Notes: generated from the letters alone by a model not told the origin. DNA of 64,000 nt from an uncultured Candidatus Saccharibacteria bacterium (GCA_963525845.1 CAURKU010000001.1:193311-257310); one strand, 5' to 3'; positions 11,790-35,865 are shown, counted from the stretch's first letter. Program-made: numbers and translations.

Positions 11790-12008
11790 CTAGCTTTTAC
11801 GAGCTTTAACTTCGTTACGACCAAGGTTTTTCTTGGTTTCGGTGTAGGTCGCGTGCTGACGAGCGATTGGGTCGTATTTACGCAGCGTCAACCTACCCTG
11901 GCCCTTAGTGGTGCGGTTTTGTGTATTGATTGTCGTGTAGTAAGTTCGGTGCTTGCTTTTGTTGCTCACCAAAGCGATCAACTTGCGTTTCGTATTCTTC
12001 TTTGCCAT
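11790..12008 (-). CDS. rpmG: 50S ribosomal protein L33, Cys-free type with C-terminal extension
   Basis: YYTT..N, LTLRKYDP, H..Y.E.K pattern. Confidence 0.9.
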   Translation of the reverse strand: MAKKNTKRKLIALVSNKSKHRTYYTTINTQNRTTKGQGRLTLRKYDPIARQHATYTETKKNLGRNEVKARKS

Positions 12009-12183
12009 AGTTTCCCTTTAACAATTTGTACTTAAACTTCGATTATACAATATAACAGATTATGCAAATTAGTTCAAGCAATTATCAAATGTTCATTCAT
12101 TGTGCTTCTGTAAAATATATGATACGGTAGTAATAGTAAGATATAACGCATCAGGTGGAGATGATGCAGTAAGGAGTGAGGGT

Positions 12184-13758
12184 ATGGCTAGACAGTCGTG
12201 GAGAACATATATAGCTCGCTTGAAGCAAGCAGCGACGACATCAAAACAAGCAACCGTAAAACATTTGGGCATTGGTATGATGGTGATGGCTATGGTGCTG
12301 CAATCAGTAGTTTTCTTCCAAGATTACGCACAAGCTGCGTCAGACGATATGATCCAAGGCGGTGTCGGCAGTAAAGAAGCAATTTTGGCGCATTATGACA
12401 AAAATACCAACAATTTCCGCGACGTACTAACCTACAATGGCATCACCAGAGCAGAATTGGCGAATATCTCTAGCACCAAGGTCCGCTACGAGGTTGATTC
12501 CTCTGCTCAGTCATGGGGTTGGACTTCACGGTTCTCTGAGGCTCAGGGTCAAAAAGCCCACACGGTTGCCGGACGCACCATTTACTCTCGTCCGCAGAAG
12601 TTGTGGGACAGTAGTTGGTACATGGGCTGGGAAGGCAGTTCGGCTACTCGAGGTAAATTCCGCATTATGTCTTCTTGTGGTAACTTGTTGACATATAGCG
12701 TGCCTCAAGCTGTTCCAGTGACGCCAACGCCGCAACCAAAACCGCAACCACAACCTCAGCCGCAGCCAGTTGCTACTTGTGACAGCTTGACTATCACCCA
12801 ACTGTCGCGTAACCGCTACCACATGAGCGCCAAGGCATCAGCCAAAAATGGCGCCACCATTCAATCAATCTACATCAGGGTGTATGACCCATCAGGCAAG
12901 CTTGTTGATGCCGGTGGTGTGACTGGTGACCAAACTGGCATGGGTGTTGAGCTCAAAACGCCAGGTACCTACAAAGTTCAAGCAACAGCAGTTACCAGCA
13001 TCGGTGAAGTAACCGGCCCTAACTGTACTGGTAGTTTCACAATTACTGATGACAATAAGCCAGAAGAGCCAAAGCCATCAGTCAGTATCACAAAAACAGT
13101 CAACAAACAGGAACACGCCAAGGTGGCGGTCAATACTGATTTCACCTATGAAATTACCGTCAAAAATACTGGCAAAACAGACCTGAAAGATGTTGTGGTG
13201 AGTGATACTGCTCCGCAAGGAGTGACGCTGTCAAACAGCAGTGCTGGTAAGGTCGATGGCGGTAAGTGGACACACACCATCGCTAACTTACCTGCTGGAC
13301 AGTCGCAGACGTTCTCTTTGACTGCTAAGTACGCAAAATTCATTGAGGGTAAGCACAAAAACACCGCTTGTGTTGACACACAGACCATCGCCGGCTCTCC
13401 AGACGCTTGTGATGACGCGACAACCGAAACCTACACGGTGACGACACCTCCAACGAATCCACCAACTCAACCAACACCAAATGAACCAAATAAGCCAACT
13501 CAGCCGACACCTACGCCATCAGTACCGAATGAGCCGAATAAGCCGACACCGACTGAGCCGACTACACCACCAACTACCAATCAAAATCAAACCACGCCTC
13601 CTGCTGCCACGCCGCAGCCGCAGCCAACTCCTACCGCGCCAACCACTAAGGAATTGCCTCTCACCGGCACTCTGAACACCGCTAGCGGCATCTTGGGACT
13701 TGGTGGACTGGTGAGCGTGACGTGCGCTTATGTGATGAGCCGACGCAGCTTGCGCTAA
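12184..13758 (+). CDS. Surface protein: N-terminal TM/signal, beta-sandwich and DUF11-like domains, Pro/Thr-rich stalk, LPxTG-type C-terminal anchor
   Basis: SD AGGAG before ATG 12184; ITKTV...FTYEITVKNTG..DL..VVVSD pattern; ELPLTG + hydrophobic helix + RRSLR. Confidence 0.82.
   Translation: MARQSWRTYIARLKQAATTSKQATVKHLGIGMMVMAMVLQSVVFFQDYAQAASDDMIQGGVGSKEAILAHYDKNTNNFRDVLTYNGITRAELANISSTKVRYEVDSSAQSWGWTSRFSEAQGQKAHTVAGRTIYSRPQKLWDSSWYMGWEGSSATRGKFRIMSSCGNLLTYSVPQAVPVTPTPQPKPQPQPQPQPVATCDSLTITQLSRNRYHMSAKASAKNGATIQSIYIRVYDPSGKLVDAGGVTGDQTGMGVELKTPGTYKVQATAVTSIGEVTGPNCTGSFTITDDNKPEEPKPSVSITKTVNKQEHAKVAVNTDFTYEITVKNTGKTDLKDVVVSDTAPQGVTLSNSSAGKVDGGKWTHTIANLPAGQSQTFSLTAKYAKFIEGKHKNTACVDTQTIAGSPDACDDATTETYTVTTPPTNPPTQPTPNEPNKPTQPTPTPSVPNEPNKPTPTEPTTPPTTNQNQTTPPAATPQPQPTPTAPTTKELPLTGTLNTASGILGLGGLVSVTCAYVMSRRSLR
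13438..13650 (+). repeat. Low-complexity Pro/Thr coding repeats (PNEPNKPT twice; PQPQP also near 12730-12768)
   Basis: Seen directly in the translation. Confidence 0.8.
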
Positions 13759-13782
13759 TCTGCAGATAACAATAAACACGAT

Positions 13783-13819
13783 AAAATCCGCGCCACAGAA
13801 CCGGCGCGGATTTATTTTT
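13783..13819. terminator. Bidirectional intrinsic terminator
   Basis: AAATCCGCGCC...GGCGCGGATTT between convergent genes. Confidence 0.85.
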
Positions 13820-13832
13820 GGTGGGCGAACAG

Positions 13833-14327
13833 TTACCGATAGTTACCAAAGCTTAACGGAAAATCAAAATCTGCTTGATTGAGCGTCGCCATGACGGATT
13901 GTAGCTCGTCTTTGCTGTTTGAGGTGCAGCGCACACTGTCGCCTTGAATCTGGGTTTTTACCTTGGGGTGTGCTTCTTTCAGGAGTTTAGTGATCTTTTT
14001 GGCGTTTTCTTGGCTGAGGCCGTCTTTGAACGGCACATCTTGCCAGGCGCGCATATTGGCGGCATTGTGCGCCCCGCCGAGGTCAAGCACCTTGCTGGTC
14101 ATATTGCGTTTGGCGAGTTGCCGGCCAATCATGTCAATGATTGATTGCACCTGAAATTCGTCTGCACCAATAACCTTGAAGCCTTTTTTGTCTGGCAGCC
14201 ATTCAACATCAGCTGGCGTCCCCTTAAAATCAAAGCGGTTGGCAATTTCCCGCACCACCAATTGATGAACGTTATTCATCTCTGGTTTGTTAAACGTGCT
14301 TTCTATATCAAAACTAAATTGAGCCAT
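13833..14327 (-). CDS. yajQ: YajQ-family nucleotide-binding protein
   Basis: SFDI, RFDFKGT, AKKITK, QIQGDSVR, DELQ, L.F.NYR. Confidence 0.92.
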   Translation of the reverse strand: MAQFSFDIESTFNKPEMNNVHQLVVREIANRFDFKGTPADVEWLPDKKGFKVIGADEFQVQSIIDMIGRQLAKRNMTSKVLDLGGAHNAANMRAWQDVPFKDGLSQENAKKITKLLKEAHPKVKTQIQGDSVRCTSNSKDELQSVMATLNQADFDFPLSFGNYR

Positions 14328-14403
14328 AATTCCTCCTGATAATTATTATAGCAAACGCTTTTCACCGACAGGATAATTTGGTATAATCAGCTGTGAGTAT
14401 AAC

Positions 14404-14479
14404 GCCGCGATAGCTCAGTTGGTAGAGCGCATCCATGGTAAGGATGAGGTCTCGGGTTCAAGCCCCGATCGTGGCTCCA
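14404..14479 (+). tRNA. tRNA-Thr (GGT)
   Basis: 76-nt cloverleaf, CATCC-ATGGTAA-GGATG anticodon arm, encoded CCA. Confidence 0.97.
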
Positions 14480-14564
14480 TGTTGATTTTGTAGAAAAGGT
14501 CACCTGAAAGGGTGGCTTTTGCATTATGCATTATCCATCTTGCCTATATGTAGTTATTTTTATC

Positions 14565-15863
14565 TTAATTACGTTTTATTAGCATTGTGATAAGCCTAAA
14601 TAAATCATCTGCCGATATGAATTCTTCACCCCTGACATTGGGGACTTTTTCTTGCGATTTGTCCAGCTTCTTTTCGCTAAAGAATTTTTCTGCTAGCTTG
14701 ATAAGTAAGTTATCCCGCTTGGTCTTGTCGGTAATATCCTCCAGATATGGACGCACTGCACTAAGCTGTAGCGACATATGTTCAGACTGTCGCTGAGCTT
14801 GGCGATGTTCTGTAGATTGTCTTGCGGCGTACGTGGCCAAGCTGCCTGAAGCTGCTAATACGGCTAGCTTTGCAACCAGCTTTTGCCAAGCCATATCACT
14901 TGCTGCTTCATGTGCAAGAATGCCTGCCCAGACAATTGCAACGATAACTGCTAAAGCTGTAACTATTTGCCACACAAGTGACGATATCCACTCGCGTTTT
15001 GCATTTTTCGAATAATCACTGATAAGTGCATCTTGGCTCACGATTCCAAGTAGTTTTTCTGCTCGTTTTCTTGCGTCCTCTGTCGCTTTGGCACTTTTCT
15101 CAGCAGCTATATTGATTGCGTTAGATTTCTCATCTGTTTCTTTCGCTAGCTTATTGAGGGTTGCATCAAGCTCACTCTGCTTGAGTGCGATAAGGTCTGC
15201 AAATTTTTCTGATCGCTCGATCTGGGCATCATTAAATGCTTTCGTCTGGTCTGTCGAAAGTTTATTTGCGGCTGATTTAACCGTTTCTAGCTGCTCGGCT
15301 AATTCTTCACTTTCCTTTGTGATGTCTTCCAACTTCTTTTCGACAACCGCTGTATTATTATCGATAATTTCTTTTGCGTCAGCTATTTTGTTGTCAATTG
15401 TGGTGTCGGCGAGCGAGCCCTTCTCTTCTATTTGACTAATAATGCCATCTACTATTGTTTTCTGACGTGCTGCGGAGCGTCGTAGACTGGTAATTGCGGC
15501 ACGCGCCTCTGGTATATTCATTGCCGGAACAACTAAGGGGATATGCTGCAATATCATGTCTACTCGTTCAATAGCATAGGATGATAGGTAGGTCGGCGAA
15601 GTGCCACCGCCCCAATCGTTCAGATACGAGTTGATGTTATGCAAATACGCAACTATACTAGAAAGTGCTGAGTAGTTAATAAGTCGAGGATCTGCGTTGT
15701 CGATAATAGCTTTCAATACCTCATTTACTGCGCGGATTTTATCAAGATAATCTCTATCCTCGATACTTAACTCAGCTTCTTTATATGAATCAAGGCGCAA
15801 GGTCAGATTTTCGCTTGCATCTGATAGCCCACTGTCTTTTAGTTTTTGTTCCCAAGGGTTCAT
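14565..15863 (-). CDS. Coiled-coil protein with two C-terminal TM helices, AT-richer than flanks
   Basis: 432-aa ORF, long heptad-like helical centre, two hydrophobic segments, SD GGAGGAG. Confidence 0.8.
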   Translation of the reverse strand: MNPWEQKLKDSGLSDASENLTLRLDSYKEAELSIEDRDYLDKIRAVNEVLKAIIDNADPRLINYSALSSIVAYLHNINSYLNDWGGGTSPTYLSSYAIERVDMILQHIPLVVPAMNIPEARAAITSLRRSAARQKTIVDGIISQIEEKGSLADTTIDNKIADAKEIIDNNTAVVEKKLEDITKESEELAEQLETVKSAANKLSTDQTKAFNDAQIERSEKFADLIALKQSELDATLNKLAKETDEKSNAINIAAEKSAKATEDARKRAEKLLGIVSQDALISDYSKNAKREWISSLVWQIVTALAVIVAIVWAGILAHEAASDMAWQKLVAKLAVLAASGSLATYAARQSTEHRQAQRQSEHMSLQLSAVRPYLEDITDKTKRDNLLIKLAEKFFSEKKLDKSQEKVPNVRGEEFISADDLFRLITMLIKRN

Positions 15864-16019
15864 CTCAAAATCTCCTCCATCAATGCCGCCTCACTGTGTG
15901 CATTTTTCTATTTCATTATACCACCTTATATTCACGACTATCTTTGATTTGGCAATCGGATGCAGCGAGAACTTGCACCTTTTGTGGCTTTAGGAATGAA
16001 GAACTATAGTATAAAAGCC

Positions 16020-16304
16020 TTATTTTTTGCTTCGTTTGGTTGTCTTTTTGGCTTCGTGCTTTGGTAGGATTGGCGCGATGAATGCGTCTAGCAGTGCCCA
16101 GGCGACGCCGTTGAAGATGTATACGACGGCGGTAAAGGCAGCGATGATCATGAGTACGCGTCCGAAGTCGCTGTTTAACAGAGACAAAAAGCCTGCTACC
16201 ACTGCCAGTGAGATGATAATCAAGAAATACGCCTGTTGCAGTTTGGTGCGCTGGTTTTTGTTGCTATTCCATTCGGTCAGGAATTGTTTGAATAATAAGA
16301 ACAT
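16020..16304 (-). CDS. Small two-TM membrane protein
   Basis: Hydrophobic helices, basic tail, TGCTATAAT 6 nt upstream. Confidence 0.75.
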   Translation of the reverse strand: MFLLFKQFLTEWNSNKNQRTKLQQAYFLIIISLAVVAGFLSLLNSDFGRVLMIIAAFTAVVYIFNGVAWALLDAFIAPILPKHEAKKTTKRSKK

Positions 16305-16407
16305 AATTAGATTATAGCATGTATATTATATTTAGTCAATGGGCAGAGGCTTGCTTGACGGAACTATGAGTAATCAAAAACCGCCTCGCGATGAGACGGT
16401 GTTTGAT

Positions 16408-16492
16408 TGGTACCGGAAGTAGGACTCGAACCTACGAAGCCTTACGGCGGGAGATTTACAGTCTCCTGTGATTGCCACTACACGATTCCGGC
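16408..16492 (-). tRNA. tRNA-Tyr (GTA)
   Basis: 85 nt with long variable arm, GGAGA-CTGTAAA-TCTCC anticodon arm. Confidence 0.95.
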
Positions 16493-17293: not shown

Positions 17294-18109
17294 TTATAGC
17301 ACAATTTTTAATAAAGCGAGGCGCGTATTGCCATTTGCCATGAGAGACTTCTCTGCTTCCAGTACTTTTTGCAGCGATTGGTGTACGGCTGGCGGTTGGG
17401 CGGCGTGTTTCAGCTGGAAATGGATGAAGCGCAGCAGGATGTCGATGAGCTGGAGGGCTTTGGTGCGGTCGGTGTAGTGCATGGCGCATTTTATGGCTGA
17501 GTATGAGCTGGGGTGCTCCAGAATATGCTTGGCGTCAGCGGCGATGGCTTGGCGCTCTGCCAGTTTTTTGGCGTTTTGGCTCAGTTCGGTGATGAGGAGC
17601 GGCAATCCAGCGGCGAGAAATGCTATTTGGCGCTTTTCTTGAGGCGTCAGTTTGACGTTTTCCAGTAGCTGAGCGTCCTGGCTAGCGGTGGTACGGTGGA
17701 GTGTCAGCTGCTGGCAGCGGGACTGGATGGTTGGGAGTAGATCTGTGCCGGCGGTAGTGATCAAGAGAAAATGAGTGTTAGGATTTGGCTCTTCCAATGT
17801 TTTGAGTAATGCGTTTTGTGCGGACTCGGTCATGAGGTTGGCTGGGTTGATGATGACGACGCGGCGGACGGAACTATGAGTGCGCAGCATGGCTGTCAGA
17901 TCGCGGATCTGTTCGGTTGAGATGGTGCTTTTTTGTGGCAGTGGGCTGACAGTGAGGACCTCTGATTGGCGGTGGTTTGCCAAGTAGTGGGCAGTTCCTA
18001 CTCTGTCCAGGCCAGGTTCGGCAATGATCATCAGTGATTGCGGTAAGCGGTTTGCTAATTGTTCTACCGTGGCTTGGTCATTGGTGGAGATGAGAGGCGT
18101 CTGGCTCAT
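17294..18109 (-). CDS. holB: DNA polymerase III delta-prime subunit, lacking the zinc module
   Basis: ISTEQIRDL, AQNALLKTLEEP, LLPTIQSRC. Confidence 0.88.
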   Translation of the reverse strand: MSQTPLISTNDQATVEQLANRLPQSLMIIAEPGLDRVGTAHYLANHRQSEVLTVSPLPQKSTISTEQIRDLTAMLRTHSSVRRVVIINPANLMTESAQNALLKTLEEPNPNTHFLLITTAGTDLLPTIQSRCQQLTLHRTTASQDAQLLENVKLTPQEKRQIAFLAAGLPLLITELSQNAKKLAERQAIAADAKHILEHPSSYSAIKCAMHYTDRTKALQLIDILLRFIHFQLKHAAQPPAVHQSLQKVLEAEKSLMANGNTRLALLKIVL

Positions 18110-24349: not shown

Positions 24350-24970
24350 TTATCGTGAGTAATACTCAACAATTAATTGCTCGTTGATATCAGCTTCTGC
24401 TTCTTCACGCTTTGGCTGTCCAGTGATCTCAATTTTCAATTTTTTGACATCACTCTTCATCCAGCTGAGCGGACCTTGAATTGAGTTGCTGACAACGTCG
24501 TCGATGTGCGTAAAGTATACTGACTTGGTACTCTTTGGACGCACTTCGATGACATCACCTGCTTTAACGCGAATTGATGGAATATCAACACGGCGACCGT
24601 TCAACAAGAAGTGACCGTGTCCGACTAGCTGGCGAGCAGCGCGGCGGCTGGTTGCAAAACCAGCACGGTAAACCACGTTGTCCAGGCGGCGTTCCAGCAG
24701 CTTCAACAGGTTCTCGCCTGCCAAACCTTCTTGGGCGCGTGTTGCTTCGTCCATCAGCCGAGCAAATTGCTTTTCAACCAAACCGTACAGGCGGCGAACT
24801 TTTTGCTTTTCGCGCAGCTGTGTGGCGTACAAACTTGGTTTGTTGTGTCGGCTGTGTGCGTGTTGACCTGGAATGCCAGATTTTCGTGCCAAAACTTTAT
24901 GTGCTTTTGGATGAAGCGCATAACCTTCGCGGCGGCTTTGCTTGACAATCGGTGAATTATCTCGTGCCAT
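24350..24970 (-). CDS. rpsD: 30S ribosomal protein S4 (Cys-free)
   Basis: QLREKQK, LERRLDNVVYR, IVEYYSR. Confidence 0.98.
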   Translation of the reverse strand: MARDNSPIVKQSRREGYALHPKAHKVLARKSGIPGQHAHSRHNKPSLYATQLREKQKVRRLYGLVEKQFARLMDEATRAQEGLAGENLLKLLERRLDNVVYRAGFATSRRAARQLVGHGHFLLNGRRVDIPSIRVKAGDVIEVRPKSTKSVYFTHIDDVVSNSIQGPLSWMKSDVKKLKIEITGQPKREEAEADINEQLIVEYYSR

Positions 24971-25766: not shown

Positions 25767-25907
25767 TTAACCCTGCCTTTGCTTGTTCTTAGGTTTTTTC
25801 TTGTTGATGACGCGCAGTCTGGCGATGCGCTTGCCCTTTTTACGGCCAACGCGGCGCACGAGTACGTCATCGGGACTGATTTTTCTAACACTTGCACGAA
25901 CTTTCAT
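25767..25907 (-). CDS. rpmJ: 50S ribosomal protein L36, Cys-free, 46 aa with basic insertion (below ORF-track cutoff)
   Basis: Hand translation [46 protein letters not shown]; located between infA and rpsM. Confidence 0.93.
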
Positions 25908-26401: not shown

Positions 26402-28630
26402 CTATTTAACTTTAAAAAATTTCAATCTTAAAGCATTACCCAAAACAGATACTGAACTAAATGACATTGCAAAAGCCGCTATCATCGGATCCAATTTTGG
26501 TCCATTGAAAAATGCATAAAATATTCCAGCGGCAAATGGTATTCCAAGTACGTTATAAAAGAATGCCCAAAATAGATTTTCCTTTATATTTGTGATTGTT
26601 GCTTTACTTAATGCTATTGCACCCGCAACATCTCTCAAATCGTTTTTAATTAAGACGATATCAGCGGATTCTATAGCAACATCTGTTCCATTTCCTATCG
26701 CAATTCCAACATTTGCCTGAGCCAGTGCTGGTGAATCGTTAATTCCGTCTCCAACCATTGCAACAAATTCATCTTTTTCCTGAAGTTCCTTTACTTTTTG
26801 AGATTTCTGATTAGGCAGCACTTCTGAAATTACATCATCTATTCCCACTTGTTTTGCGATAAATTTGGCAGTTTTTTCGTTATCTCCAGTTAGCATTACT
26901 GTCTTGATTCCCATTTTTTTCAGTTTTTCTATAGCTTCCTTGCTTGTTTCCTTGATAACGTCTGCAACTGCAACAAGTCCCGCCAATTCGTTATCAATCG
27001 AAATGTACATTGGCGTTTTTCCTTCATTTAACAAAATATCATAATCTTTTTGAGAAATTTCCACATTGATTTTTCGATTTTCCATCAATTTTCTATTTCC
27101 AATTTGAACTTCCTTGTCTTTAAATGTTGCACGAATACCGTAACCTGGCATTGCCCTAAATTTTTCATACGGCTTAATTTCAATATTTTTCTCTTTTGCT
27201 TTGTTTACGATTGCTTCTGCCAATGGATGTTCTGAATCATTTTCCACACTTGCAGCAATTTTTAACAATTCATTTTCATTATATTTCCCATAAGCAATCA
27301 AATTAGTCAGTACAGGCTTTCCTTTCGTAATTGTACCAGTCTTGTCAAAGACAACAGTTTTTATTTTATGCGCTGTTTCAAGGGCTTCCCCGCTTTTTAT
27401 AAGAATACCGTTCTCAGCCCCTTTTCCAGTTCCAACCATTATTGATGTAGGTGTTGCAAGTCCCAATGCACACGGACACGCAATTACAAGTACAGCGATG
27501 AAAAACGACAATGCAGTAACCAATCCACTTCCACTTAGAAACCAAGCAATTCCTGTAATTATCGCAATCCCAATAACAATCGGCACAAAATATGCCGACA
27601 CAATGTCTGCCATTCTAGAAATAGGAGCCTTTGACCCCTGTGCCTCCTCAACCAGCTTTATAATTTGTGACAAAACTGTATTTTTACCAATTTCAGTCGC
27701 CTCAAATCTGATACTTCCATTTTTATTTATACTTCCTCCAACAACCTTATCTCCAACTTTTTTGCTTACTGGCAAACTTTCTCCTGTCAACATTGACTCA
27801 TCAACAGAAGTCGCCCCTTCCACAATTCTTCCATCCACCGCAATTTTTTCTCCCGGCTTCACAATAACAATATCTCCAACTTTCAAGTTTTCAATCAGAA
27901 CTTCCTTTTCCGCTCCATTTTCAATAATTTTAGCCTTTTTAGGTTGAAGTCTGATAAGTTTTTTTATTGCCGATGAAGTTTGACCTTTTGTTTTTGCCTC
28001 CAGCAGTTTTCCAAACAAGATTAACGTAATAATTGCACCAGCCGACTCATAATATAAATCCATATGTGCTTCAGGATCTACAGTTACAATTCTAAAAGTT
28101 GCATAAATTCCATAGAGTACCGCCGCTGTTGCCCCAATAGCAATTAATGAATCCATTGTTGGAGATTTTCTTACTAAATTTTTAAATCCATGTGAAAAAA
28201 AATCTCTCCCAGCATAAATAATAGGCAAAGTCAACACAAACTGTGCCAACGCAAAATTAAGCGGATTTACCTTAGGATTCAAAAATTCAGGAAGTACTGC
28301 CCCAAGCATATGCCCCATCGAAATATACAAAAGTGGAACAACAAAAATAACTGCTAAAATTAATCGATTTTTCAAACTTGTTATTTTTTCTTGATAAAGT
28401 TCCACCTTTTTATCTTCTGTCATATCCTCAGCCAGTCCATACCCAGCCGACTCCACTATTTCCCTAATTTTATCAAAATTGTACTTCTTCTCATCATATT
28501 CAATATTCAATTTTTCAGTTGCAAAATTAACTGAAGCGTTAATATCATTATTTTTATTAAGTGCCTTTTCCACAGCATTGGCACAAGATGCACAGCTCAT
28601 TCCAGTTACTGTATAGTTTTTTTCTGCCAT
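26402..28630 (-). CDS. copA: Cu(I)-exporting P1B-type ATPase
   Basis: [31 protein letters not shown] and MxxSS motifs; SD favours ATG 28630. Confidence 0.95.
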
Positions 28631-28663
28631 AATCTTTTCCTCCTTCATTTAGCACACTATATC

Positions 28664-29131
28664 TTAAATATGCTTATGTCCGCTATGTTCGCAATTACAC
28701 TGCCCCTCCACACAATCACACAAAACTTCTTCCATAGCCGTCTTCCTCTTTTCCTCAACAGCCTTTAAAATCAAATCCAAGTCGTCAAAACTCAGTTCAC
28801 TGTTCTCAATAACTTTCCCTATCATTTCTCCAACTTTCGTTTTACAAATTTTATCAAAAGTTCCTAATATATAACTGTTAGCAACTTCCTTTTCTGTAAA
28901 ATCTGTCGAATAAATATACTTGTTCCCAATTTCCCTCTTTTTCAAAATATTCTTTTCCAGTAGCCGATTCAACAGCGTCTTTATTGTAGCCTGTTTCCAG
29001 TTCATTTTCTCACAAAGCACCTCTGTCATAAACTTGCTCGTAACTTCGCTATTTGCCCACACAACTCGCATTACTTCCCATTCTGCATCGGTTATATGCT
29101 GTTTTTTATCGATTCTGCAATTTTCTTTCAC
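28664..29131 (-). CDS. copY: CopY/TcrY-family copper-responsive repressor
   Basis: BlaI-type ITDAEWEVMRVVW, TIKTLLNRL; C-terminal CxC-x4-CxC; GTG start with AGGAGG. Confidence 0.93.
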   Translation of the reverse strand: MKENCRIDKKQHITDAEWEVMRVVWANSEVTSKFMTEVLCEKMNWKQATIKTLLNRLLEKNILKKREIGNKYIYSTDFTEKEVANSYILGTFDKICKTKVGEMIGKVIENSELSFDDLDLILKAVEEKRKTAMEEVLCDCVEGQCNCEHSGHKHI

Positions 29132-29149
29132 ATTCTTACCTCCTTTAAT

Positions 29150-29196
29150 GTTTACGTTTGTAATCTTTTTACATTATATAGTTTACAACAGTAATC
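29150..29196 (-). promoter_or_regulatory. cop promoter with two cop-box-like operators flanking TATAAT
   Basis: GATTACTGTTGTAAAC and GATTACAAACGTAAAC (each one mismatch from TACAnnTGTA) around the -10 at 29173-29178. Confidence 0.75.
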
Positions 29197-29222
29197 GTTT
29201 TTTGTATATTCTTGTCACATAT

Positions 29223-29264
29223 GTATTATCTCACAACATATTTCCATAAATTTATGTGCTATAC
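29223..29264 (+). repeat. Right boundary repeats of cop cassette: B (29223-29239) then A (29239-29264)
   Basis: B identical to the left copy; A matches 24/26. Confidence 0.9.
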
Positions 29265-29295
29265 TTGAGCTATCAAATTTAACATAAGGATTTTT

Positions 29296-29877
29296 ATGGC
29301 AAGTACGAAAAATCGGACAAAGTCTCAAACAAAAAAATCACAAGTTGAGCTGCTGGTACCCGTTTTGATTGGTGTGATAGCAGTGTTGATGCTGATTGTT
29401 GGTTGTTTGGTGTGGAAATTGAACTGTCAATCACCACACAAACCATACGCAGTGACGGAAAAGATTGGCAGCGGCTTCGTGAGTTTGGGCTCATTGGGCT
29501 TTCGTTTTGAGGGAAATAAGGCGATCGCTCGGCACGACGCGTCCGTAAAAGAAATTCGTGAGTTTCTGAAAAAAGAAAATGAGCGATCAGGTTGCAAAGA
29601 TAACAATGGTGCGGTCAGCGTGATCGCGTATTCTCAAGATGAAAAACAATTACTATTAGGTTCTGGTTGTGGCAACACGCTCGCGCGGATGTTTGCAGTA
29701 AAGAAAGACGATAGTTGGAAAGCAATTTCACCAACAAATCAGTTCAATTTGTTCGAAGTTCCAAGTTGTAAAATGACTGATGAAAATAATATCAGCAAGG
29801 AAATCGCGCCGGTTTGCCAGAATGAAAGTCGCGCTGCAGAGAATGCTCCCCTGACTTATTCTTACAGAGTACGTTAG
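29296..29877 (+). CDS. Single-TM hypothetical protein with Cys-containing external domain
   Basis: 193-aa ORF, N-terminal TM, AAGGA SD. Confidence 0.75.
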   Translation: MASTKNRTKSQTKKSQVELLVPVLIGVIAVLMLIVGCLVWKLNCQSPHKPYAVTEKIGSGFVSLGSLGFRFEGNKAIARHDASVKEIREFLKKENERSGCKDNNGAVSVIAYSQDEKQLLLGSGCGNTLARMFAVKKDDSWKAISPTNQFNLFEVPSCKMTDENNISKEIAPVCQNESRAAENAPLTYSYRVR

Positions 29878-29929: not shown

Positions 29930-31399
29930 TTATTTTTTGCGGAGTAATCGTCGCTTTTTTGGTGTGTTGGTTCCGAGATCGTCAGCGTCGAAGTCGTCAT
30001 AGGTTACCATCAATGCGCGCGAGCTAATTTGGCGAATGGATTCTAGCGCGACTGACACGATAATCAAGATACCTGTACCACCGATTGACAAGCGAGTGCC
30101 GGTCAGTCCCGTGATGTGATATATCAGATATTCAGCGACGAACGGCAAGATAGCGACCACGCCAAGTGCTAATGAGCCGAACAAGACCAAGCGGTTGACA
30201 GTGCGGCGGAGGTACTCTTCGGTTTGCTTGCCTGGGCGAATGCCTTCGATGAAGCCACCCTGCTTTTGCAAGCCTTCGGATATCTCAGTAGCGTCAAAAC
30301 TAAAGCCCGTGTAGAAGTACGTGAAGGCAATGACCAGGATGAAGTACAGAACAGGATAGATGAAGGCTTCAGCGGTGCTGCCGGTAAAACTGCCTGGGTT
30401 TGGTGCTTGGAACCAGGTGATCAAGGTGCTGGCGAGGGATTGTAGCCCTTCGTTGCCAGAAGCTTTCATGATTTGACCGATGAACTGTGGCAGGCTCAGA
30501 AAAGCCACGGCGAAAATAACCGGGATCACACCAGCGGCGATTAGTTTGACTGGCAGGATGCTTTTGATGCCGCCGTAGTTGCTGTTACCGTGGACACGCT
30601 TGGCGTAGTTGATGGTGATGACACGCTGTGCTTCGTTAATTTTTACCAGGAAATAAAGCACGACGAGCATCATAAGTAAGAGGAAGAATACTATCCAGAA
30701 CATGGTTGGGCTGACTGGCAATTGGAACCAGCCAAATACGCTCAGTGAGCCGTTTGAGGTGTCAAAGAGTGAACGGATGACTGTGGCTAGCATCTGCGGT
30801 AGTTGGCTGACGATTCCTGCAAAAATTAACAGAGAAATGCCATTTCCTACTCCCTGCTCGGTGATGAGCTCACCCAGCCACATCAATAAGACTGATCCAG
30901 CGGTCATGGCGACGACTGAGACTGTCCACTCCATGATGGTTGGATCGCTCAAGACGGTTGATCCGCCAGCCAAGATGGTTTGGCGTAAGATGAAGATGAA
31001 AGCGATTGATTGGACGATGGCCAGTGGAACGGTGATGCGACGTGTCCATTGCTGAATTTTGCGACGTCCAGTTTCGCCGTCGTCGTGGAGTTCCTTTAGT
31101 TTTGGAATGGCTTTTGTCAGTAGCTGGATGATGATGCTGGCGGTAATGAATGGGCTCAAACCAACCAATACCAAAGAAAAGCTCGCCAAAGCACCGCCGG
31201 ACAGAAGGTTAAGGAATCCTCCCAAGTCTGTGCTGCCTAACGCCGAGCTGATGGCTTGGCGCAACTGTGTTGGCTCAGCCAATGGCACTGGAATGTGCGC
31301 GAGTAATCGGTACACGACAATAATGCCGATGACAATCGACAAGCGCTTTTGCATATCTCTATTTTTCAATGACCGCCAAATGGTCTTCCAGCTAATCAT
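29930..31399 (-). CDS. secY: Preprotein translocase subunit SecY
   Basis: PFITASIIIQLL, WLGELITEQGVGNGISLLIF, GIRPG. Confidence 0.98.
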   Translation of the reverse strand: MISWKTIWRSLKNRDMQKRLSIVIGIIVVYRLLAHIPVPLAEPTQLRQAISSALGSTDLGGFLNLLSGGALASFSLVLVGLSPFITASIIIQLLTKAIPKLKELHDDGETGRRKIQQWTRRITVPLAIVQSIAFIFILRQTILAGGSTVLSDPTIMEWTVSVVAMTAGSVLLMWLGELITEQGVGNGISLLIFAGIVSQLPQMLATVIRSLFDTSNGSLSVFGWFQLPVSPTMFWIVFFLLLMMLVVLYFLVKINEAQRVITINYAKRVHGNSNYGGIKSILPVKLIAAGVIPVIFAVAFLSLPQFIGQIMKASGNEGLQSLASTLITWFQAPNPGSFTGSTAEAFIYPVLYFILVIAFTYFYTGFSFDATEISEGLQKQGGFIEGIRPGKQTEEYLRRTVNRLVLFGSLALGVVAILPFVAEYLIYHITGLTGTRLSIGGTGILIIVSVALESIRQISSRALMVTYDDFDADDLGTNTPKKRRLLRKK

Positions 31400-31555
31400 A
31401 CGTTTACTTTCCCCTCTGTCGTTTCAATATATAGAATTCTCTAACCAGTATACAGGAGTATCTGGCTAAATACCAGTGTTGAGCCCAAAAAAGCGCCAAA
31501 ACAGAACGCCCCGGCTAGCGAGGCGTTTTGTAGGTTACATAGAGCCTAAAGTATC

Positions 31556-32035
31556 TTATTTTTCGTCAGACTCGACGTCTTTTGCACTTTGGCGCAAAGG
31601 CGTTGCAACTTTCTCAAATGAGCCGCCGGCCTTTTCAATCGCTTTGACGACTGAAGCGGATGCAGCTTGTACTTTCAAGTCAACCTTGGCTTTCAATTCA
31701 CCGCGAGCGATCACCTTGACCGTGTGGAACGGTGTGGCGATGTAACCTTCGGTAAACAGCAGGGCGTTGTCAACGGTTTTACCGTCAAAGGCGTTCAGGT
31801 GATCCAAGTAGACTACCTGAGCTGGCGTGCGCAGGCTCTTGAAACCGCGAGCTTTTGGTACAGCCTGAGCCAATGGACGCTGACCACCCTGGAACATGGC
31901 GCGAAGCTTTTTACCAGTGCGGGCGTTCTGACCTTTAGTACCGCGACCAGCGGTTTTACCCTGGCCAGCAGCGATACCGCGACCAACACGCTTTTTATTC
32001 TTGTTTGCTGAAACTTGGAGATCATTGTATTTCAT
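31556..32035 (-). CDS. rplO: 50S ribosomal protein L15
   Basis: RVGRG...GKTAGRGTKGQ, FQGGQ. Confidence 0.97.
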   Translation of the reverse strand: MKYNDLQVSANKNKKRVGRGIAAGQGKTAGRGTKGQNARTGKKLRAMFQGGQRPLAQAVPKARGFKSLRTPAQVVYLDHLNAFDGKTVDNALLFTEGYIATPFHTVKVIARGELKAKVDLKVQAASASVVKAIEKAGGSFEKVATPLRQSAKDVESDEK

Positions 32036-32625
32036 TACTTAGCCTCCTTTTTAGCAGCTTTTTTGACTGGCTGAACGCCCAACCACTCTTCGCGTGGAAC
32101 GAGTGATTTCAATGCTTCAATAGTTGCATAGGCGATGTTCACCTTGTTGGTTGAACCAAGTGACTTGGTCAGCAGGTTGCGAACACCGGTCACACCGATG
32201 ATCTGTCGGACAACACCACCAGCGATGATACCAGTACCAGGAGCAGCTGGCTTGATCAGCACGCGGGCGCCTGAGAACTTAACTTCGCTGTCGTGTGGAA
32301 TGGTTTCGCCATTGAGTGGCAAAGTGATCAAATGCTTCTTAGCAACTGAGGTTGCCTTAGCGACAGCAGCTTGCACGTCGGCACCCTTAGCCACGCCAAC
32401 ACCGACCTTGTCCTTGCGGTTGCCGACAACCACCAACGCCTTAAAGCGGAAGCGGCGGCCACCTTTGACCACGCGGCTCACGCGGTCAATGTTGATTACC
32501 AATTCTTCAAACTCTTTTGGTGCGTCATCGCGCACATTTCGCCGGTCATCGCGGCGACCACCACGCGGACTGCGAGGCCGACGGCCTTCTGCGCGTGGGG
32601 TAGTATTTGCAGCTTGTTCTGCCAT
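32035..32625 (-). CDS. rpsE: 30S ribosomal protein S5
   Basis: KGGRRFRF, PAAPGTGIIAGG; start ATG 32625. Confidence 0.97.
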   Translation of the reverse strand: MAEQAANTTPRAEGRRPRSPRGGRRDDRRNVRDDAPKEFEELVINIDRVSRVVKGGRRFRFKALVVVGNRKDKVGVGVAKGADVQAAVAKATSVAKKHLITLPLNGETIPHDSEVKFSGARVLIKPAAPGTGIIAGGVVRQIIGVTGVRNLLTKSLGSTNKVNIAYATIEALKSLVPREEWLGVQPVKKAAKKEAK

Positions 32626-32626
32626 A

Positions 32627-32977
32627 CTAGAACTCCAATCCTTCTTGGCGCGCAGCATCAGCCAATGCCTTCAAGCGACCAGCGTACTGGCGGCCGTTGC
32701 GGTCAAAGACCACTGCGCTAATTTTACTTTTCTTTGCTTTCTTGGCAATTTCGGTACCGATGGTAGCACATTTTTCGCTCATCGTACCTTTTGCTTTGGT
32801 GCCAACGGTGGTTGCGGCAGCCAATGTTTTGCCTGCGACGTCGTCGATCAGCTGAGCGCTAACGTGCATGTTGCTGATGGTGACGGTTAAGCGTGGGCGC
32901 TCTGCAGTGCCTGAAACCTTAGCGCGAACGCGGTTTTTGCGAAGAGCTTGGTTGAGTAATTTCTTGTTTTCAGCCAT
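32627..32977 (-). CDS. rplR: 50S ribosomal protein L18
   Basis: GTAERPRL, VVFDR, AARQEGLEF. Confidence 0.97.
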   Translation of the reverse strand: MAENKKLLNQALRKNRVRAKVSGTAERPRLTVTISNMHVSAQLIDDVAGKTLAAATTVGTKAKGTMSEKCATIGTEIAKKAKKSKISAVVFDRNGRQYAGRLKALADAARQEGLEF

Positions 32978-32979
32978 GA

Positions 32980-33519
32980 TTACTTACCTGTCTTTCCTGC
33001 TTTGCGCAAAATTTGCTCGTCAGCATACTTGATACCCTTGCCCTTGTATGGCTCAGGCTTCTTCAGCGCACGGATTTCCGCAGCGACTTGGCCGACTTGC
33101 TGTTTATTGATACCGCTGACGATGATGGTCATCTTTTCGTTGGTAACGGTGATGCCCTCTGGGGCTTTGTATTTGACTGGGTGTGAAAACCCGAGCGCCA
33201 TTTCCAGTTCGTTGTTGCTGGAGCTCACGCGGAAACCGACACCATTGACCTCTAGGCGCTTCTCGTAGCCCTTGGTGACGCCGATTACCATATTGTTGAT
33301 TAGCGCGCGCATCAGACCGTGCTGGGCGCGAGCAGTTTTGGACTCATCCTTCGGATGAACCGTGACTTGTCCGTCTTCGACTTTCACCTCAACTGCTGGC
33401 GTGATGAATTGTGTCAATTCACCTTTCGGGCCCTTTACGACCACATCACCAGAGTCAACCGTGATTGTCACACCGGCCGGAATAACCACCGGCAGTTTTC
33501 CGATTCGACTCAGACTCAT
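32980..33519 (-). CDS. rplF: 50S ribosomal protein L6
   Basis: SRIGK, PEPYKGKGI. Confidence 0.98.
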   Translation of the reverse strand: MSLSRIGKLPVVIPAGVTITVDSGDVVVKGPKGELTQFITPAVEVKVEDGQVTVHPKDESKTARAQHGLMRALINNMVIGVTKGYEKRLEVNGVGFRVSSSNNELEMALGFSHPVKYKAPEGITVTNEKMTIIVSGINKQQVGQVAAEIRALKKPEPYKGKGIKYADEQILRKAGKTGK

Positions 33520-33604
33520 TACTCACCTTTCGTGTGATTTGATATTAACCCTGATATTTTAGCATAGATTAGGGGTGAAATGCAAGGTTTTTTGAGCGCT
33601 CTGC

Positions 33605-34135
33605 CTAGCTACCGTACGGGATGAGTAGAATAATCGCCAAGATGCCGAGAGTAATATATGTTACTAGGGCGGCTTTGGTCAAATACGGCTCTTTCATATC
33701 GTAGATTTTACGTACTTCGTAATAATCCCATAGCCGCCAGCCAGAGATCATTAAAAGAATGCCAGCGAAGATACTTAAATAGCCACTAACATCAATATGC
33801 CAAAGAAAGTTTGATGCATCAACTAGAGCGATGAATGTAGCTACTCCCATTGTCGACCAGAAGCGTGCCTGTGGCTTTTGTCCAACAGCAATAAAACAGG
33901 TGGCGGCGACCATGATCAACTCAACGAGAGGATTTTCCGCGAACAGTACCTGAATATAATAACTGGGGACTCCCTGCCTAGGGTCAGCACTGCTAATAAG
34001 CCAACCCACTCCATACAGTAGGGGCATCATAACGACGATAGACAACAAGAAGGGCAAAAAATCAACAATGAAAACATCTTTAACAGTTATTTCTGCTTGG
34101 TCTGATGTTTTTGTCATATGGAGGAAGCTACGCAT
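33605..34135 (-). CDS. Multi-pass membrane hypothetical protein inserted in the spc operon
   Basis: About 5 hydrophobic segments; TGCTATACT 8 nt upstream of ATG 34135. Confidence 0.7.
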   Translation of the reverse strand: MRSFLHMTKTSDQAEITVKDVFIVDFLPFLLSIVVMMPLLYGVGWLISSADPRQGVPSYYIQVLFAENPLVELIMVAATCFIAVGQKPQARFWSTMGVATFIALVDASNFLWHIDVSGYLSIFAGILLMISGWRLWDYYEVRKIYDMKEPYLTKAALVTYITLGILAIILLIPYGS

Positions 34136-34260
34136 ATGATTACAGTATAGCAAAATACGTTATACTAAAAGTTATATTAGGCGAGGGCTGACTGATCTTT
34201 AAGCATATAAAAATAAACGCCCTCATTATCAAGGACGCTTATTTTGTTTACTGCGATGTT

Positions 34261-34407
34261 TTAGTACACCTTCAACAGTAACTCACCGCCAAGTTTTTGA
34301 TTGGCTGCTTCGTTGATGGTGACGACCAGCACGCCACGAGGCTTAGCGTCCTCTAGTTTAACATCTGCGAGATAGCCGACTAATTGTTCGGCGATGACTT
34401 TTTTCAT
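34261..34407 (-). pseudogene. Internally deleted duplicate of rpsH (open 48-aa frame)
   Basis: Aligns to rpsH with 6-nt and 150-nt deletions. Confidence 0.9.
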
Positions 34408-34441
34408 CTTGCTACCTTTCTACCATGTTTAACTACTACTT

Positions 34442-34981
34442 TTACACGGTGGGTAGATTATTTATTTGGCTTTGTATAGCGGCCTGCAACTCTGCGCTTT
34501 CGCTTGCCCATGGAATGTGTCGTGTGAGTTCATCAACTGTTACAAATTTAGCATACCGTATCTGCTCTTCCTGTATTTGCTCTTCGTCCTCGTTCTGTTG
34601 ATGTAAGACATACTCATCGGCATTCTTATCAAGGTTCAAGCTAACCCGAAGTTGTAAGTACTCGTCATCATTTTTTAAGCTATCTGTTTCCAGGATATCG
34701 TAATAACCAAAGAACTTATACTGACTAGATACGCTGTCTGTATTAATTCCCGTCTCTTCTTCTACTTCACGTACAATAGTTTGCAAGTAGGTCTCGTGCT
34801 TATTTGGTTTTCCACCGGGCAGCTGCCACTTTCGACCATCCTTAGAGACGATGGCTATTTTATTATCGTGAGTAAAAAGCCAAGCATATACCTGATTTAT
34901 TGGAAGAGCCTGATCTTCCAGGCGAATTTCTTTACCATCTTTCCAAGTGCGTGCTTTAATAGTTTTTCTTATGGTGTCCAT
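34442..34981 (-). CDS. NUDIX hydrolase
   Basis: LPGG...ET....IVREVEEETG Nudix box; AT-richer than flanks. Confidence 0.88.
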   Translation of the reverse strand: MDTIRKTIKARTWKDGKEIRLEDQALPINQVYAWLFTHDNKIAIVSKDGRKWQLPGGKPNKHETYLQTIVREVEEETGINTDSVSSQYKFFGYYDILETDSLKNDDEYLQLRVSLNLDKNADEYVLHQQNEDEEQIQEEQIRYAKFVTVDELTRHIPWASESAELQAAIQSQINNLPTV

Positions 34982-35173
34982 GATATCTACTTAAATTTAT
35001 TGCCTGGGTTAGCCAGCCTAGTCTATTATAATTTATATCCCCGGGTGTCAGAAAGTGTCCTGCGTCTTCTTTTATAGCACAGAGCGACAATTATCGCTAA
35101 ACTCCAATTATTAAGAGCACTCCCCATTTGAGGAGCGCTCTTAGGTTTCTGGCGTGATTGTGATGTCGGGAAA

Positions 35174-35575
35174 CTAGTACACCTTCAACAACAACTCACC
35201 GCCAAGCTTCGCCTTGGCTGCTTCGGCGCCAGTCATGACACCTTTTGAGGTTGAGATGAGTACCAGACCGCGGCCACTTTTCACCTTTGGAATCTCGCTA
35301 GCGCCGACGTAAACGCGACGACCAGGTTTTGAGACACGGGTGATCTCGTTGATGGTGCTGTTGGTACCTTCTTCGTTGATGGTCACGACCAGCACGCCGC
35401 GAGGCTTGGCGTCCTCTAGTTTAACATCTGTAAGGTAGCCGTTTTTGACTAATTGTTCAGCGATGACTTTTTTCATCTTGCTGGACGGAACACGAACTTC
35501 CGTCTTGCCAACCAGTTTCGCATTGCGAATGCGCGTCAGAAGGTCGGCGATTGGGTCTGTAGTTTGCATAGACAT
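35174..35575 (-). CDS. rpsH: 30S ribosomal protein S8
   Basis: DPIADLLTRIRN, SKPGRRVY, STSKGVM. Confidence 0.98.
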   Translation of the reverse strand: MSMQTTDPIADLLTRIRNAKLVGKTEVRVPSSKMKKVIAEQLVKNGYLTDVKLEDAKPRGVLVVTINEEGTNSTINEITRVSKPGRRVYVGASEIPKVKSGRGLVLISTSKGVMTGAEAAKAKLGGELLLKVY

Positions 35576-35595
35576 TGTCGAATCTCCTTTCCTTC

Positions 35596-35865
35596 TTACC
35601 AACTACTCTTTGTTATGCCTGGGATTTCACCCTTGGCTGCTTTTTCGCGGAAATTGATGCGGCTCAGGCCGAACTGGCGCATGTAACCACGTGGACGACC
35701 GGAAATGCTGTCGCGGTTCTTGTGCCGAGTTGGGCTCGAGTTGCGAGGCAGCTTCTGCAAACCGTCGAGGTCGCCAAGTTCTTTGAGCTCAGCGCGCTTC
35801 GCAGCGTATTTTGCGATCATCTTCAGACGCTTTTTGTCGCGAGCGACCATTGATTTCTTAGCCAT
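35596..35865 (-). CDS. rpsN: 30S ribosomal protein S14, long Zn-independent form
   Basis: 89 aa, [20 protein letters not shown], no Cys. Confidence 0.97.

What the first reader, a model, noticed from the sequence alone, without database searches (positions are those of the whole stretch)
11790..35865. Coordinated loss of structural zinc motifs in ribosome and clamp loader
Seen: L33, S4, L36 and S14 in their core positions contain no Cys, and HolB runs from its degenerate P-loop straight to the ISTEQIR region without the usual C4 zinc module. The catalytic HExxH of the DUF45 peptidase is retained. Known: Cys-free paralogs of these r-proteins serve zinc sparing in Bacillus and Actinobacteria, often as Zur-regulated extra copies. 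Inference: together with RpoC this suggests constitutive removal of structural Zn, plausibly fitting an epibiont with limited metal uptake. General cysteine or oxidation avoidance is an alternative (EF-Tu has DMPG and NKMD).
Basis: partly seen in the sequence, partly recalled or inferred. Interest (0 to 1): 0.7.

Follow-up and report, generated by a model that had tools for sequence, protein, structure and literature searches.

The report
Zinc-free core machinery in Saccharibacteria
This tiny bacterium and its whole order have replaced or deleted the zinc-holding cysteines in their RNA polymerase, DNA primase, clamp loader and ribosomal proteins, so machines thought to need structural zinc appear to work without it.

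Summary
In this 0.76 Mb genome L33, S4, L36, S14, L31, L32, S18, DnaX, DnaG, NrdR and SecA have no Cys. RpoC has lost all 8 ligands of both zinc sites by substitution. DnaG's CHC2 is S,T,D,S. The DnaX and HolB zinc modules are deleted. RecR and LigA have lost theirs.

This is not general Cys avoidance. In 180 ortholog pairs with an outgroup of the same phylum, Cys density is equal (0.57% vs 0.56%), but clustered Cys number 76 vs 151 and isolated Cys 341 vs 254.

It is lineage-wide. The Cys-free beta' domain is in 29 of 29 other genomes sampled from the order and the Cys-free primase domain in 29 of 29. In the rest of the phylum, 20 of 20 and 20 of 20 keep the ligands.

Losses are stepwise, and DnaJ, PriA, UvrA and RadA keep their sites. 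No ZnuA, ZIP or CDF was found. A Fur-family/nicotianamine-synthase-like/COG0523 locus exists, in this genus only.

Best reading: constitutive zinc-independent machinery, probably zinc economy. The benefit is inferred, not shown.

The parts
11790..12008 (-). rpmG, ribosomal protein L33, 72 aa, no Cys, single copy
   Evidence: PF00471 at 9.8e-11. 0 Cys. No paralog by tblastn. The ingroup genome G027 still has 3 Cys (CDAC..C).
17294..18109 (-). holB, clamp-loader delta', 271 aa, N-terminal Cys module absent
   Evidence: PF13177 at 2.8e-26 and the NCBIfam holB model. Residues 50-137 align to E. coli delta' 75-164. Only C132 and C208 are present.
24350..24970 (-). rpsD, ribosomal protein S4, 206 aa, no Cys (not lineage-specific)
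   Evidence: PF00163 and PF01479. 0 Cys. S4 of outgroup G063 is also Cys-free.
25767..25907 (-). rpmJ, ribosomal protein L36, 46 aa, no Cys, with an 8-residue insertion; sits in the canonical infA-rpmJ-rpsM position
   Evidence: PF00444 at 2.2e-11. 0 Cys. NCBIfam: rpmJ_bact 25.1 bits (cut-off 22.7) and 'type B L36' 30.9 bits (cut-off 70). G027 has a 38-aa Cys-free form without the insertion.
35596..35865 (-). rpsN, ribosomal protein S14, long 89-aa form, no Cys
   Evidence: PF00253. NCBIfam NF006477 at 114 bits (cut-off 77). Outgroup G063 has the short form with 4 Cys.
57858..61703 (-). rpoC, RNA polymerase beta', 1281 aa, only C58, C429 and C517
   Evidence: Pfam Rpb1 domains 1-5. Cys positions.
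61440..61496 (-). beta' N-terminal zinc-binding domain (residues 70-88); the four ligand positions are P70, D72, V85, N88
   Evidence: Gap-free alignment to E. coli beta' (yeClCgkykrlkhrgviCekCg vs inPhDsklkgvrsreaaVdkNg). Same in 29 of 29 other genomes of the order. C-x-C..C-x2-C in 20 of 20 genomes from the rest of the phylum.
58923..59159 (-). beta' second zinc site region (residues 849-927); ligand positions are E849, T917, P924, S927
   Evidence: Alignment to PDB 8x6f chain D (edCgtdrg; ftCnarhgvCekCyg). Three-way alignment.
7774..8460 (-). YgjP-like (DUF45) metallopeptidase, HELCH kept (catalytic metal site retained)
   Evidence: PF01863 at 3.7e-46. HELCH at residue 189.
44525..45709 (-). 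tuf, EF-Tu with DMPG and NKMD (two commonly Cys positions are Met); not a zinc site
   Evidence: Same in ingroup G027. Outgroup G063 has DCPG and NKVD.

Best explanation
The order to which this genome belongs carries zinc-independent versions of protein modules that elsewhere hold a structural Zn(Cys4 or Cys3His) ion. Named relatives are labelled Candidatus Saccharibacteria, Saccharimonadales or Nanosynbacter.

Three routes are visible.

(a) In-place substitution of all ligands, with the surrounding domain kept and strongly conserved: both beta' sites, the DnaG zinc ribbon, RecR, LigA and L36.

(b) Deletion of the module: DnaX, HolB and the SecA C-terminus.

(c) Use of a Cys-free protein type: long S14, type B L31, and TopA with Cys-free C-terminal repeats.

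The losses accumulated stepwise. Some lie at the base of the order, and later ones lie in sub-clades. They hit clustered Cys selectively. Catalytic zinc enzymes and a subset of structural sites (DnaJ, PriA, UvrA, RadA, Fur-like) remain.

Inferred, not shown: the substituted domains fold through hydrogen bonds or packing instead of a metal. The net effect would be a permanently lower cellular zinc quota in abundant essential machines (ribosome, RNA polymerase, replisome). That would suit ultra-small epibionts that lack the usual zinc importers.
For: Ligand loss, residue by residue:
- beta' site 1: C,C,C,C -> P,D,V,N.
- beta' site 2: -> E,T,P,S.
- DnaG CHC2: -> S,T,D,S, at E=1.9e-30 to PDB 1d0q.
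- DnaX module deleted.
- RecR: C,C,C,C -> C,T,S,Y.
- LigA: -> Y,L,I,G.
- HolB N-terminal part 25 residues shorter.
- Zero Cys in L31, L32, L33, L36, S14, S18, SecA, NrdR, DnaX and DnaG.

Selectivity against outgroup G063 (241 reciprocal best hits):
- Clustered Cys: 151 in G063, of which 58 are kept here. 76 here, of which 52 are kept there.
- Isolated Cys: 254 vs 341.
- 25 proteins lost at least 2 clustered Cys; 9 show the reverse.
- Cys density is equal, 0.57% vs 0.56%. Fisher test on clustered vs isolated gives p=9e-10, though Cys within one site are not independent.
- Against the partial outgroup G064: 100 vs 39 clustered Cys, and 16 vs 4 proteins.

Lineage:
- Cys-free beta' domain in 29 of 29 other genomes of the order (19 of the same genus, 10 of other families), and in 80 of 80 named Saccharibacteria loci. 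That scan used the motif itself as a pattern, so it is biased.
- 20 of 20 genomes from the rest of the phylum keep the Cys.
- DnaG: 29 of 29 other genomes of the order are Cys-free, and 20 of 20 in the rest of the phylum are C-H-C-C.
- The replacing residues are themselves conserved (S..D..S in DnaG; P,D,V/I,N in beta').

Stepwise loss:
- LigA, NrdR, IleRS and L33 still carry Cys in ingroup G027.
- The LigA region is Cys-free in 30 of 30 best loci: this genome's own locus, 24 of the same genus and 5 of other families.

Zinc handling:
- No ZnuA, no ZIP above cut-off, no CDF.
- A Fur-family gene lies divergent from a nicotianamine-synthase-like gene, followed by COG0523 (CICC), with a second COG0523 (CVCC) nearby.
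Against: - No metal content, expression or fitness data exist here. The benefit is inference.
- Many Cys clusters survive. There are 73 CxxC motifs against 15.8 +/- 3.7 expected by shuffling, and zinc enzymes remain. These include class II aldolase, adenosine deaminase, M1/M41/M48/M50 peptidases and RNase J. The cell still needs zinc.
- The Fur-family protein is not assignable to Zur. The Zur model scores 23.9 bits and the Fur and PerR models score higher, all below cut-off.
- The nicotianamine-synthase-like gene was found in 0 of 120 other genomes of the order and in 31 of 60 of the genus. It therefore cannot explain the ancient, order-wide losses.
- The whole-proteome control rests on one complete and one partial outgroup genome.
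- Outgroup G063 itself keeps only 63 of 96 clustered Cys of G064. Some loss is therefore a wider trend in the phylum.
- S4 and Adk are Cys-free in the outgroup too.
Confidence: 0.6

Rival explanations
1. Protection from oxidants or electrophiles. Zn-thiolate clusters are easily oxidised, so the lineage removed them from essential machines to resist H2O2, HOCl or host-derived stress. Zinc saving would be a by-product.
For: The loss is specific to clustered Cys, which fits this reading as well as zinc economy. EF-Tu has Met at two positions that are Cys or Val in outgroup G063 (DMPG/NKMD vs DCPG/NKVD), and this is shared across the order.
Against: Isolated Cys are more numerous than in the outgroup, 341 vs 254. 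Thiol systems are kept: thioredoxin, TrxB, glutaredoxin, DsbA-like and VKOR. The redox-sensitive DnaJ and Fur-type sites are retained.
Confidence: 0.2
2. Neutral decay. In tiny, drifting genomes the zinc modules became dispensable and were lost by chance, with no selective benefit.
For: Some modules are simply deleted: DnaX, HolB and the SecA C-terminus. Outgroup G063 has also lost clustered Cys relative to G064.
Against: Outgroups of similar size (0.70 Mb) keep the sites. The substituted domains and the replacing residues are strongly conserved across 29 other genomes, which indicates purifying selection on a new state. The change is directional: 25 proteins lost against 9 reverse.
Confidence: 0.15
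3. Artefact or ordinary composition. The pattern would reflect low Cys content, mis-called genes or missed Cys-containing paralogs.
For: My own ORF caller did miss one gene, the Fur-family gene.
Against: Cys density equals that of the outgroup. The paralog search was six-frame and independent of gene calls. The key sites were read from alignments to solved structures.
Confidence: 0.03

Closest known systems
Cys-free ('C-') paralogs of ribosomal proteins L31, L33, L36 and S14 expressed under zinc limitation (e.g. the mycobacterial AltRP operon; PMC5912738 and PMC9825181, abstracts seen in the listing). The C+/C- scheme of Makarova et al. 2001 is recalled, not read.
   Same: The same proteins are in Cys-free form. 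L31 passes the NCBIfam 'type B' model at 121.7 bits (cut-off 86), and S14 is the long form.
   Different: Here they are the only copies, with no C+ partner. They sit in the canonical operon positions, so the state is constitutive and not a regulated switch. L36 looks like an in-place substitution of the operon copy.
Topoisomerase I C-terminal repeats without cysteines (Topo_C_Rpt, PF13368), as in Actinobacteria (PMC9369019, passages read).
   Same: TopA has three PF13368 repeats and no zinc ribbons. Outgroup G063 has 16 Cys in TopA.
   Different: This is known as an isolated feature of one enzyme. Here it is one of at least 20 parallel losses in one lineage.
DksA2, a Cys-free paralog of the zinc-finger RNA polymerase factor DksA in Zur regulons (PMC11672702, passage read).
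   Same: A zinc finger in the transcription apparatus is replaced by a metal-free fold.
   Different: DksA2 is an accessory factor and a paralog. Here the catalytic beta' subunit itself has lost both sites.
Metazoan mitochondrial Twinkle, whose primase-type zinc-binding domain lacks the cysteines (PMC4417153 seen only in the listing; details recalled).
   Same: A primase-family zinc ribbon without ligands.
   Different: As recalled, Twinkle has lost primase activity. Here DnaG is the only primase found, and its domain is conserved across the order, so it is presumably active.

Membership tests
Zur-regulated alternative (C-) ribosomal protein paralogs | Cys-free form of a normally zinc-binding ribosomal protein | tested here: met
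   0 Cys in L31, L32, L33, L36, S14 and S18.
Zur-regulated alternative (C-) ribosomal protein paralogs | Coexists with a Cys-containing primary copy | tested here: not met
   Six-frame tblastn with this genome's own (Cys-free) ribosomal proteins as queries found no second copy in the genome.
Zur-regulated alternative (C-) ribosomal protein paralogs | Repressed by Zur through an operator upstream | not tested
   The genes lie inside the main ribosomal protein operons. No operator search was done.
Canonical bacterial beta' zinc-binding domain | Sequence homology of the domain | tested here: met
   E about 1e-37 to E. coli beta' residues 3-118, without gaps.
Canonical bacterial beta' zinc-binding domain | Four Cys ligands (C70, C72, C85, C88 in E. 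coli numbering) | tested here: not met
   P, D, V, N at those positions.
DnaG CHC2 zinc ribbon (PF01807) | Domain profile match | tested here: met
   PF01807 at 2.1e-27. E=1.9e-30 to PDB 1d0q.
DnaG CHC2 zinc ribbon (PF01807) | Cys-His-Cys-Cys ligands | tested here: not met
   S, T, D, S at those positions. The whole 578-aa protein has 0 Cys.
Type B (non-zinc) L31 | NCBIfam NF002462 above its cut-off | tested here: met
   121.7 bits against a cut-off of 86.
COG0523 zinc metallochaperones | G3E GTPase domain with a CxCC motif | tested here: met
   PF02492 hits. CICC at 65 and CVCC at 93.
COG0523 zinc metallochaperones | Membership of the zinc-linked subfamily (ZigA/YeiR type), or Zur control | tested here: inconclusive
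   The ZigA model scores 42.5 and 36.7 bits against a cut-off of 600. A Fur-family gene is adjacent, but its metal is unknown.
Zur (zinc uptake regulator) | Fur-family fold with a structural CxxC..CxxC | tested here: met
   PF01475 at 1.3e-18. CIRC..CKNC and HHHH are in the sequence.
Zur (zinc uptake regulator) | Zur-specific model above cut-off | tested here: not met
   The Zur model scores 23.9 bits (cut-off 167). The Fur and PerR models score higher, and all are below cut-off.

The most novel reading that the evidence does not exclude
A whole bacterial order (Saccharimonadales-type Saccharibacteria) transcribes, primes, loads clamps, ligates and translates with metal-free versions of modules regarded as obligately zinc-bound in bacteria. 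This includes both beta' sites and the primase zinc ribbon. The loss was built up stepwise as a lineage-level zinc economy. It would be a natural experiment showing that these 'invariant' zinc sites are replaceable.

A bolder sub-reading: the conserved O-donor set in DnaG (Ser, Thr/Ser, Asp, Ser) now binds a hard metal such as Mg2+ or Ca2+. I give that sub-reading about 0.1.
Probability: 0.55. Interest if true: 0.85.

Novelty: new variant of a known kind. Interest (0 to 1): 0.8.

Why it matters
From recalled textbook knowledge, the beta' and primase zinc sites are treated as conserved structural features of bacterial transcription and replication. A large natural clade without them has four consequences.

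1. It shows which zinc sites are dispensable and what residues can replace them.
2. It gives a testable case of proteome-scale metal economy in ultra-small epibionts.
3. It supplies sharp sequence markers for the clade: INPHD..AVDKNG in beta', and LSPF..WHDFSS in DnaG.
4. It bears on zinc-based nutritional immunity. It also bears on any inhibitor, or annotation rule, that assumes these sites.

I found no paper reporting this in seven full-text searches. The library lacks most subscription journals, so prior mention cannot be excluded.

Tried and rejected
- General Cys avoidance: rejected.
- Hidden Cys-containing paralogs of ribosomal proteins: none found.
- ZnuA, ZIP and CDF importers or exporters: not found in this 99.9%-complete genome.
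- L32: only a weak Pfam hit, E=0.019. I accepted the 48-aa ORF as L32 because the G027 ORF matches at 71% identity (E=2e-12) and G064 weakly at 52% over 23 residues (E=0.005).
- The nicotianamine-synthase/COG0523 locus as the cause of the order-wide trait: rejected, because it is confined to the genus.
- The inverted repeat TGTCGCAAT-n10-ATTGCGACA, between the Fur-family gene and the synthase gene: not followed up as an operator.
- A second complete outgroup genome could not be had. Only 443,892 of 843,892 bases of G064 were obtained.
- I did not run structure or complex predictions. A confident model of a homologous fold would not show whether a metal is needed.
- I did not search other phyla for Cys-free beta' or primase domains. 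Whether other lineages share the trait is open.


Full report
**What was checked.**
The window is G000:C1:193311-257310 of a genome of 755,686 bases in 2 contigs. Its completeness is 99.93%. I called genes with a self-trained dicodon score, giving 802 ORFs. I scanned all of them against Pfam in six calls. Named relatives fetched later are labelled Candidatus Saccharibacteria, Saccharimonadales or Nanosynbacter. I therefore call the lineage Saccharibacteria. The order, family and genus levels are those reported by the genome search.

**The observation.**
- L33, S4, L36 and S14 have no Cys. HolB has only C132 and C208.
- HolB residues 50-137 align to residues 75-164 of E. coli delta'. The N-terminal part is therefore 25 residues shorter, and the Cys module is absent.
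- The DUF45 peptidase keeps HELCH. EF-Tu has DMPG and NKMD. Both genes lie outside the coordinates given in the finding.

**It goes much further.**
These proteins have zero Cys: L31, S18, DnaX (491 aa), DnaG (578 aa), NrdR, SecA (876 aa) and Adk. So does the 48-aa ORF taken as L32. RpoC (1281 aa) has three Cys, none at a zinc site. Alignments to solved structures give the details:

| Site | Change |
|---|---|
| beta' site 1 | C,C,C,C -> P70, D72, V85, N88, no gap |
| beta' site 2 | -> E849, T917, P924, S927 |
| DnaG C-H-C-C | -> S,T,D,S, in a domain matching PDB 1d0q at E=1.9e-30 |
| DnaX zinc module | deleted |
| RecR | C,C,C,C -> C,T,S,Y |
| LigA | four Cys -> Y,L,I,G |

TopA carries three Cys-free PF13368 repeats instead of zinc ribbons. 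No second copy of L33, L36, S14, L31, L28, S18 or L32 exists in six-frame searches.

**What is kept.**
- DnaJ keeps 8 Cys, PriA 8, UvrA 12, and RadA 4. PilB, PilD, NrdD and PheS each keep 4.
- The Fur-family protein keeps CIRC..CKNC.
- CxxC motifs number 73, against 15.8 +/- 3.7 expected by within-protein shuffling.
- Catalytic zinc enzymes are present.
- So the picture is a mosaic, not a zinc-free cell.

**Control for composition.**
I fetched one complete outgroup genome of the same phylum (G063, 699,981 bases). I also fetched one genome of another family of the same order (G027, 669,327 bases) and 443,892 of the 843,892 bases of a second outgroup (G064).

Proteome Cys is 0.68% in this genome, 0.60% in G027, 0.58% in G063 and 0.91% in partial G064.

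I aligned reciprocal-best-hit orthologs globally. A Cys was called 'clustered' if another Cys lies within 5 residues:

| Comparison | Reciprocal best hits | Clustered Cys, partner (kept here) | Clustered Cys, here (kept in partner) | Isolated Cys, partner vs here | Proteins losing >=2 clustered Cys vs reverse |
|---|---|---|---|---|---|
| G063 (outgroup) | 241 | 151 (58) | 76 (52) | 254 vs 341 | 25 vs 9 |
| G064 (partial outgroup) | 112 | 100 (34) | 39 (29) | 209 vs 157 | 16 vs 4 |
| G027 (ingroup) | 341 | 112 (74) | 98 (70) | 460 vs 482 | 10 vs 12 |

In the 180 G063 pairs that hold any Cys, total Cys is 417 of 73,652 residues here against 405 of 72,603 there. A Fisher test on clustered vs isolated gives p=9e-10. 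The Cys of one site are not independent, so that p value overstates. The depletion is specific to metal-type clusters.

A caveat: G063 keeps only 63 of 96 clustered Cys of G064. Part of the trend is therefore wider in the phylum.

**Distribution.**
- beta': the Cys-free domain (INPHD..AVDK[NK]G) is in 29 of 29 other genomes of the order with a fetched match. Nineteen are of the same genus and ten are of other families.
- beta', rest of the phylum: 20 of 20 genomes chosen across the ranking keep C-x-C..C-x2-C.
- beta', named records: 80 of 80 named Saccharibacteria loci are Cys-free. That scan used the motif itself as a search pattern, so it is biased.
- DnaG, order: all 30 loci are S-x2-[T/S/N/G]..D-x2-S. 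These are this genome plus 29 others, each of a different genus. One of them, G206, is an unpublished genome. Without it the count is 28 of 28 others.
- DnaG, rest of the phylum: 20 of 20 stretches are C-H-C-C.
- The replacing residues are themselves conserved, which argues for selection on the new state.

**Order of events.**
- In G027 the beta' sites, DnaG, DnaX, RecR, SecA, TopA, L31, S18, RecO and UvrC are already lost.
- G027 still has the LigA finger, the NrdR ribbon, two IleRS CxxC pairs and three Cys in L33.
- The LigA region is Cys-free in 30 of 30 best-scoring loci: this genome's own locus, 24 of the same genus and 5 of other families.
- Fpg here reads C..H..CxxC, where G027 has four Cys.
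- The losses therefore accumulated stepwise.

**Zinc handling.**
- No ZnuA, no ZIP above cut-off and no CDF were found.
- My ORF caller missed a Fur-family gene (PF01475, 1.3e-18). It lies divergent from a nicotianamine-synthase-like gene (PF03059, 7.4e-42).
- Downstream follow a COG0523 GTPase (CICC), a Cys-rich 180-aa ORF and a TerC/DUF475 membrane protein. A second COG0523 (CVCC) lies nearby.
- NCBIfam cannot say whether the regulator is Zur, Fur or PerR.
- The synthase gene is in 0 of 120 other genomes of the order and in 31 of 60 of the genus. It is a recent addition and not the cause of the old losses.

**Reading.**
- Shown: a selective, conserved, stepwise and order-wide loss of structural zinc ligands in core machinery.
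- Inferred: the domains fold without metal, and the change lowers the zinc quota of abundant essential machines in cells that lack the usual importers.
- Rivals: removal of oxidation-prone Zn-thiolate sites, and neutral decay. The first is hard to separate with sequence alone. The second fits poorly with the conservation of the substituted domains and with equally small outgroups that keep the sites.

**Literature.**
Seven full-text searches found no report of this in Saccharibacteria or Patescibacteria. Known parallels are:
- C- ribosomal paralogs (abstracts seen);
- Cys-free TopA repeats (PMC9369019, passages);
- DksA2 (PMC11672702, passage).

The statement that the beta' and primase ligands are otherwise conserved in bacteria is my recollection, supported here only within this phylum.

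Noticed in passing
window 26402-29877: A lower-GC island (0.43-0.44, against about 0.48 for the genome) sits inside the ribosomal protein operon between infA and secY. It holds a CopA-like P-type ATPase with an HMA domain (748 aa), a Penicillinase_R/CopY-like repressor (155 aa, 7 Cys) and a 193-aa ORF with 6 Cys. The adk and map genes that usually sit here are elsewhere (L001). It looks like an inserted copper-resistance cassette.
   Followed up: no
window 33605-35127: Three ORFs are inserted between rpsH (S8) and rplF (L6): 182 aa and 48 aa with no family, and a 179-aa NUDIX hydrolase.
   Followed up: no
L009:11951-17384 (G000:C1:164971-170404): A Fur-family gene lies divergent from a nicotianamine-synthase-like gene. 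It is followed by COG0523, a Cys-rich 180-aa ORF and TerC/DUF475, with a second COG0523 nearby. The 70-bp divergent spacer holds the inverted repeat TGTCGCAAT-n10-ATTGCGACA. The synthase gene is in 31 of 60 other genomes of the genus and in 0 of 120 in the rest of the order.
   Followed up: partly
L026:14388-17575: LepA (EF4) appears split. An N-terminal part (286 aa) and a C-terminal part (320 aa) are separated by two ORFs, one of them DUF6994.
   Followed up: no
L009:54-2552: There is a full CysRS (503 aa), plus a separate 101-aa ORF that matches only the first ~56 positions of the CysRS catalytic domain.
   Followed up: no
L031:13596-15354: A COG0701/ArsP_1 permease is paired with a TIGR03943 subunit. 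Its best NCBIfam names are SaoE and SO_0444 Cu/Zn efflux, below cut-off. It is a candidate metal transporter of unknown direction.
   Followed up: no
L019:18149-19189 (PheS) and L038:15421-17229 (ThrRS): These proteins have clustered Cys that outgroup G063 lacks: PheS C269, C272, C279, C282 and ThrRS C75, C78. Gains of Cys clusters therefore also occur (9 proteins against G063).
   Followed up: no
window 44525-45709: EF-Tu has Met in DMPG and NKMD in this genome and in G027. Outgroup G063 has DCPG and NKVD.
   Followed up: partly
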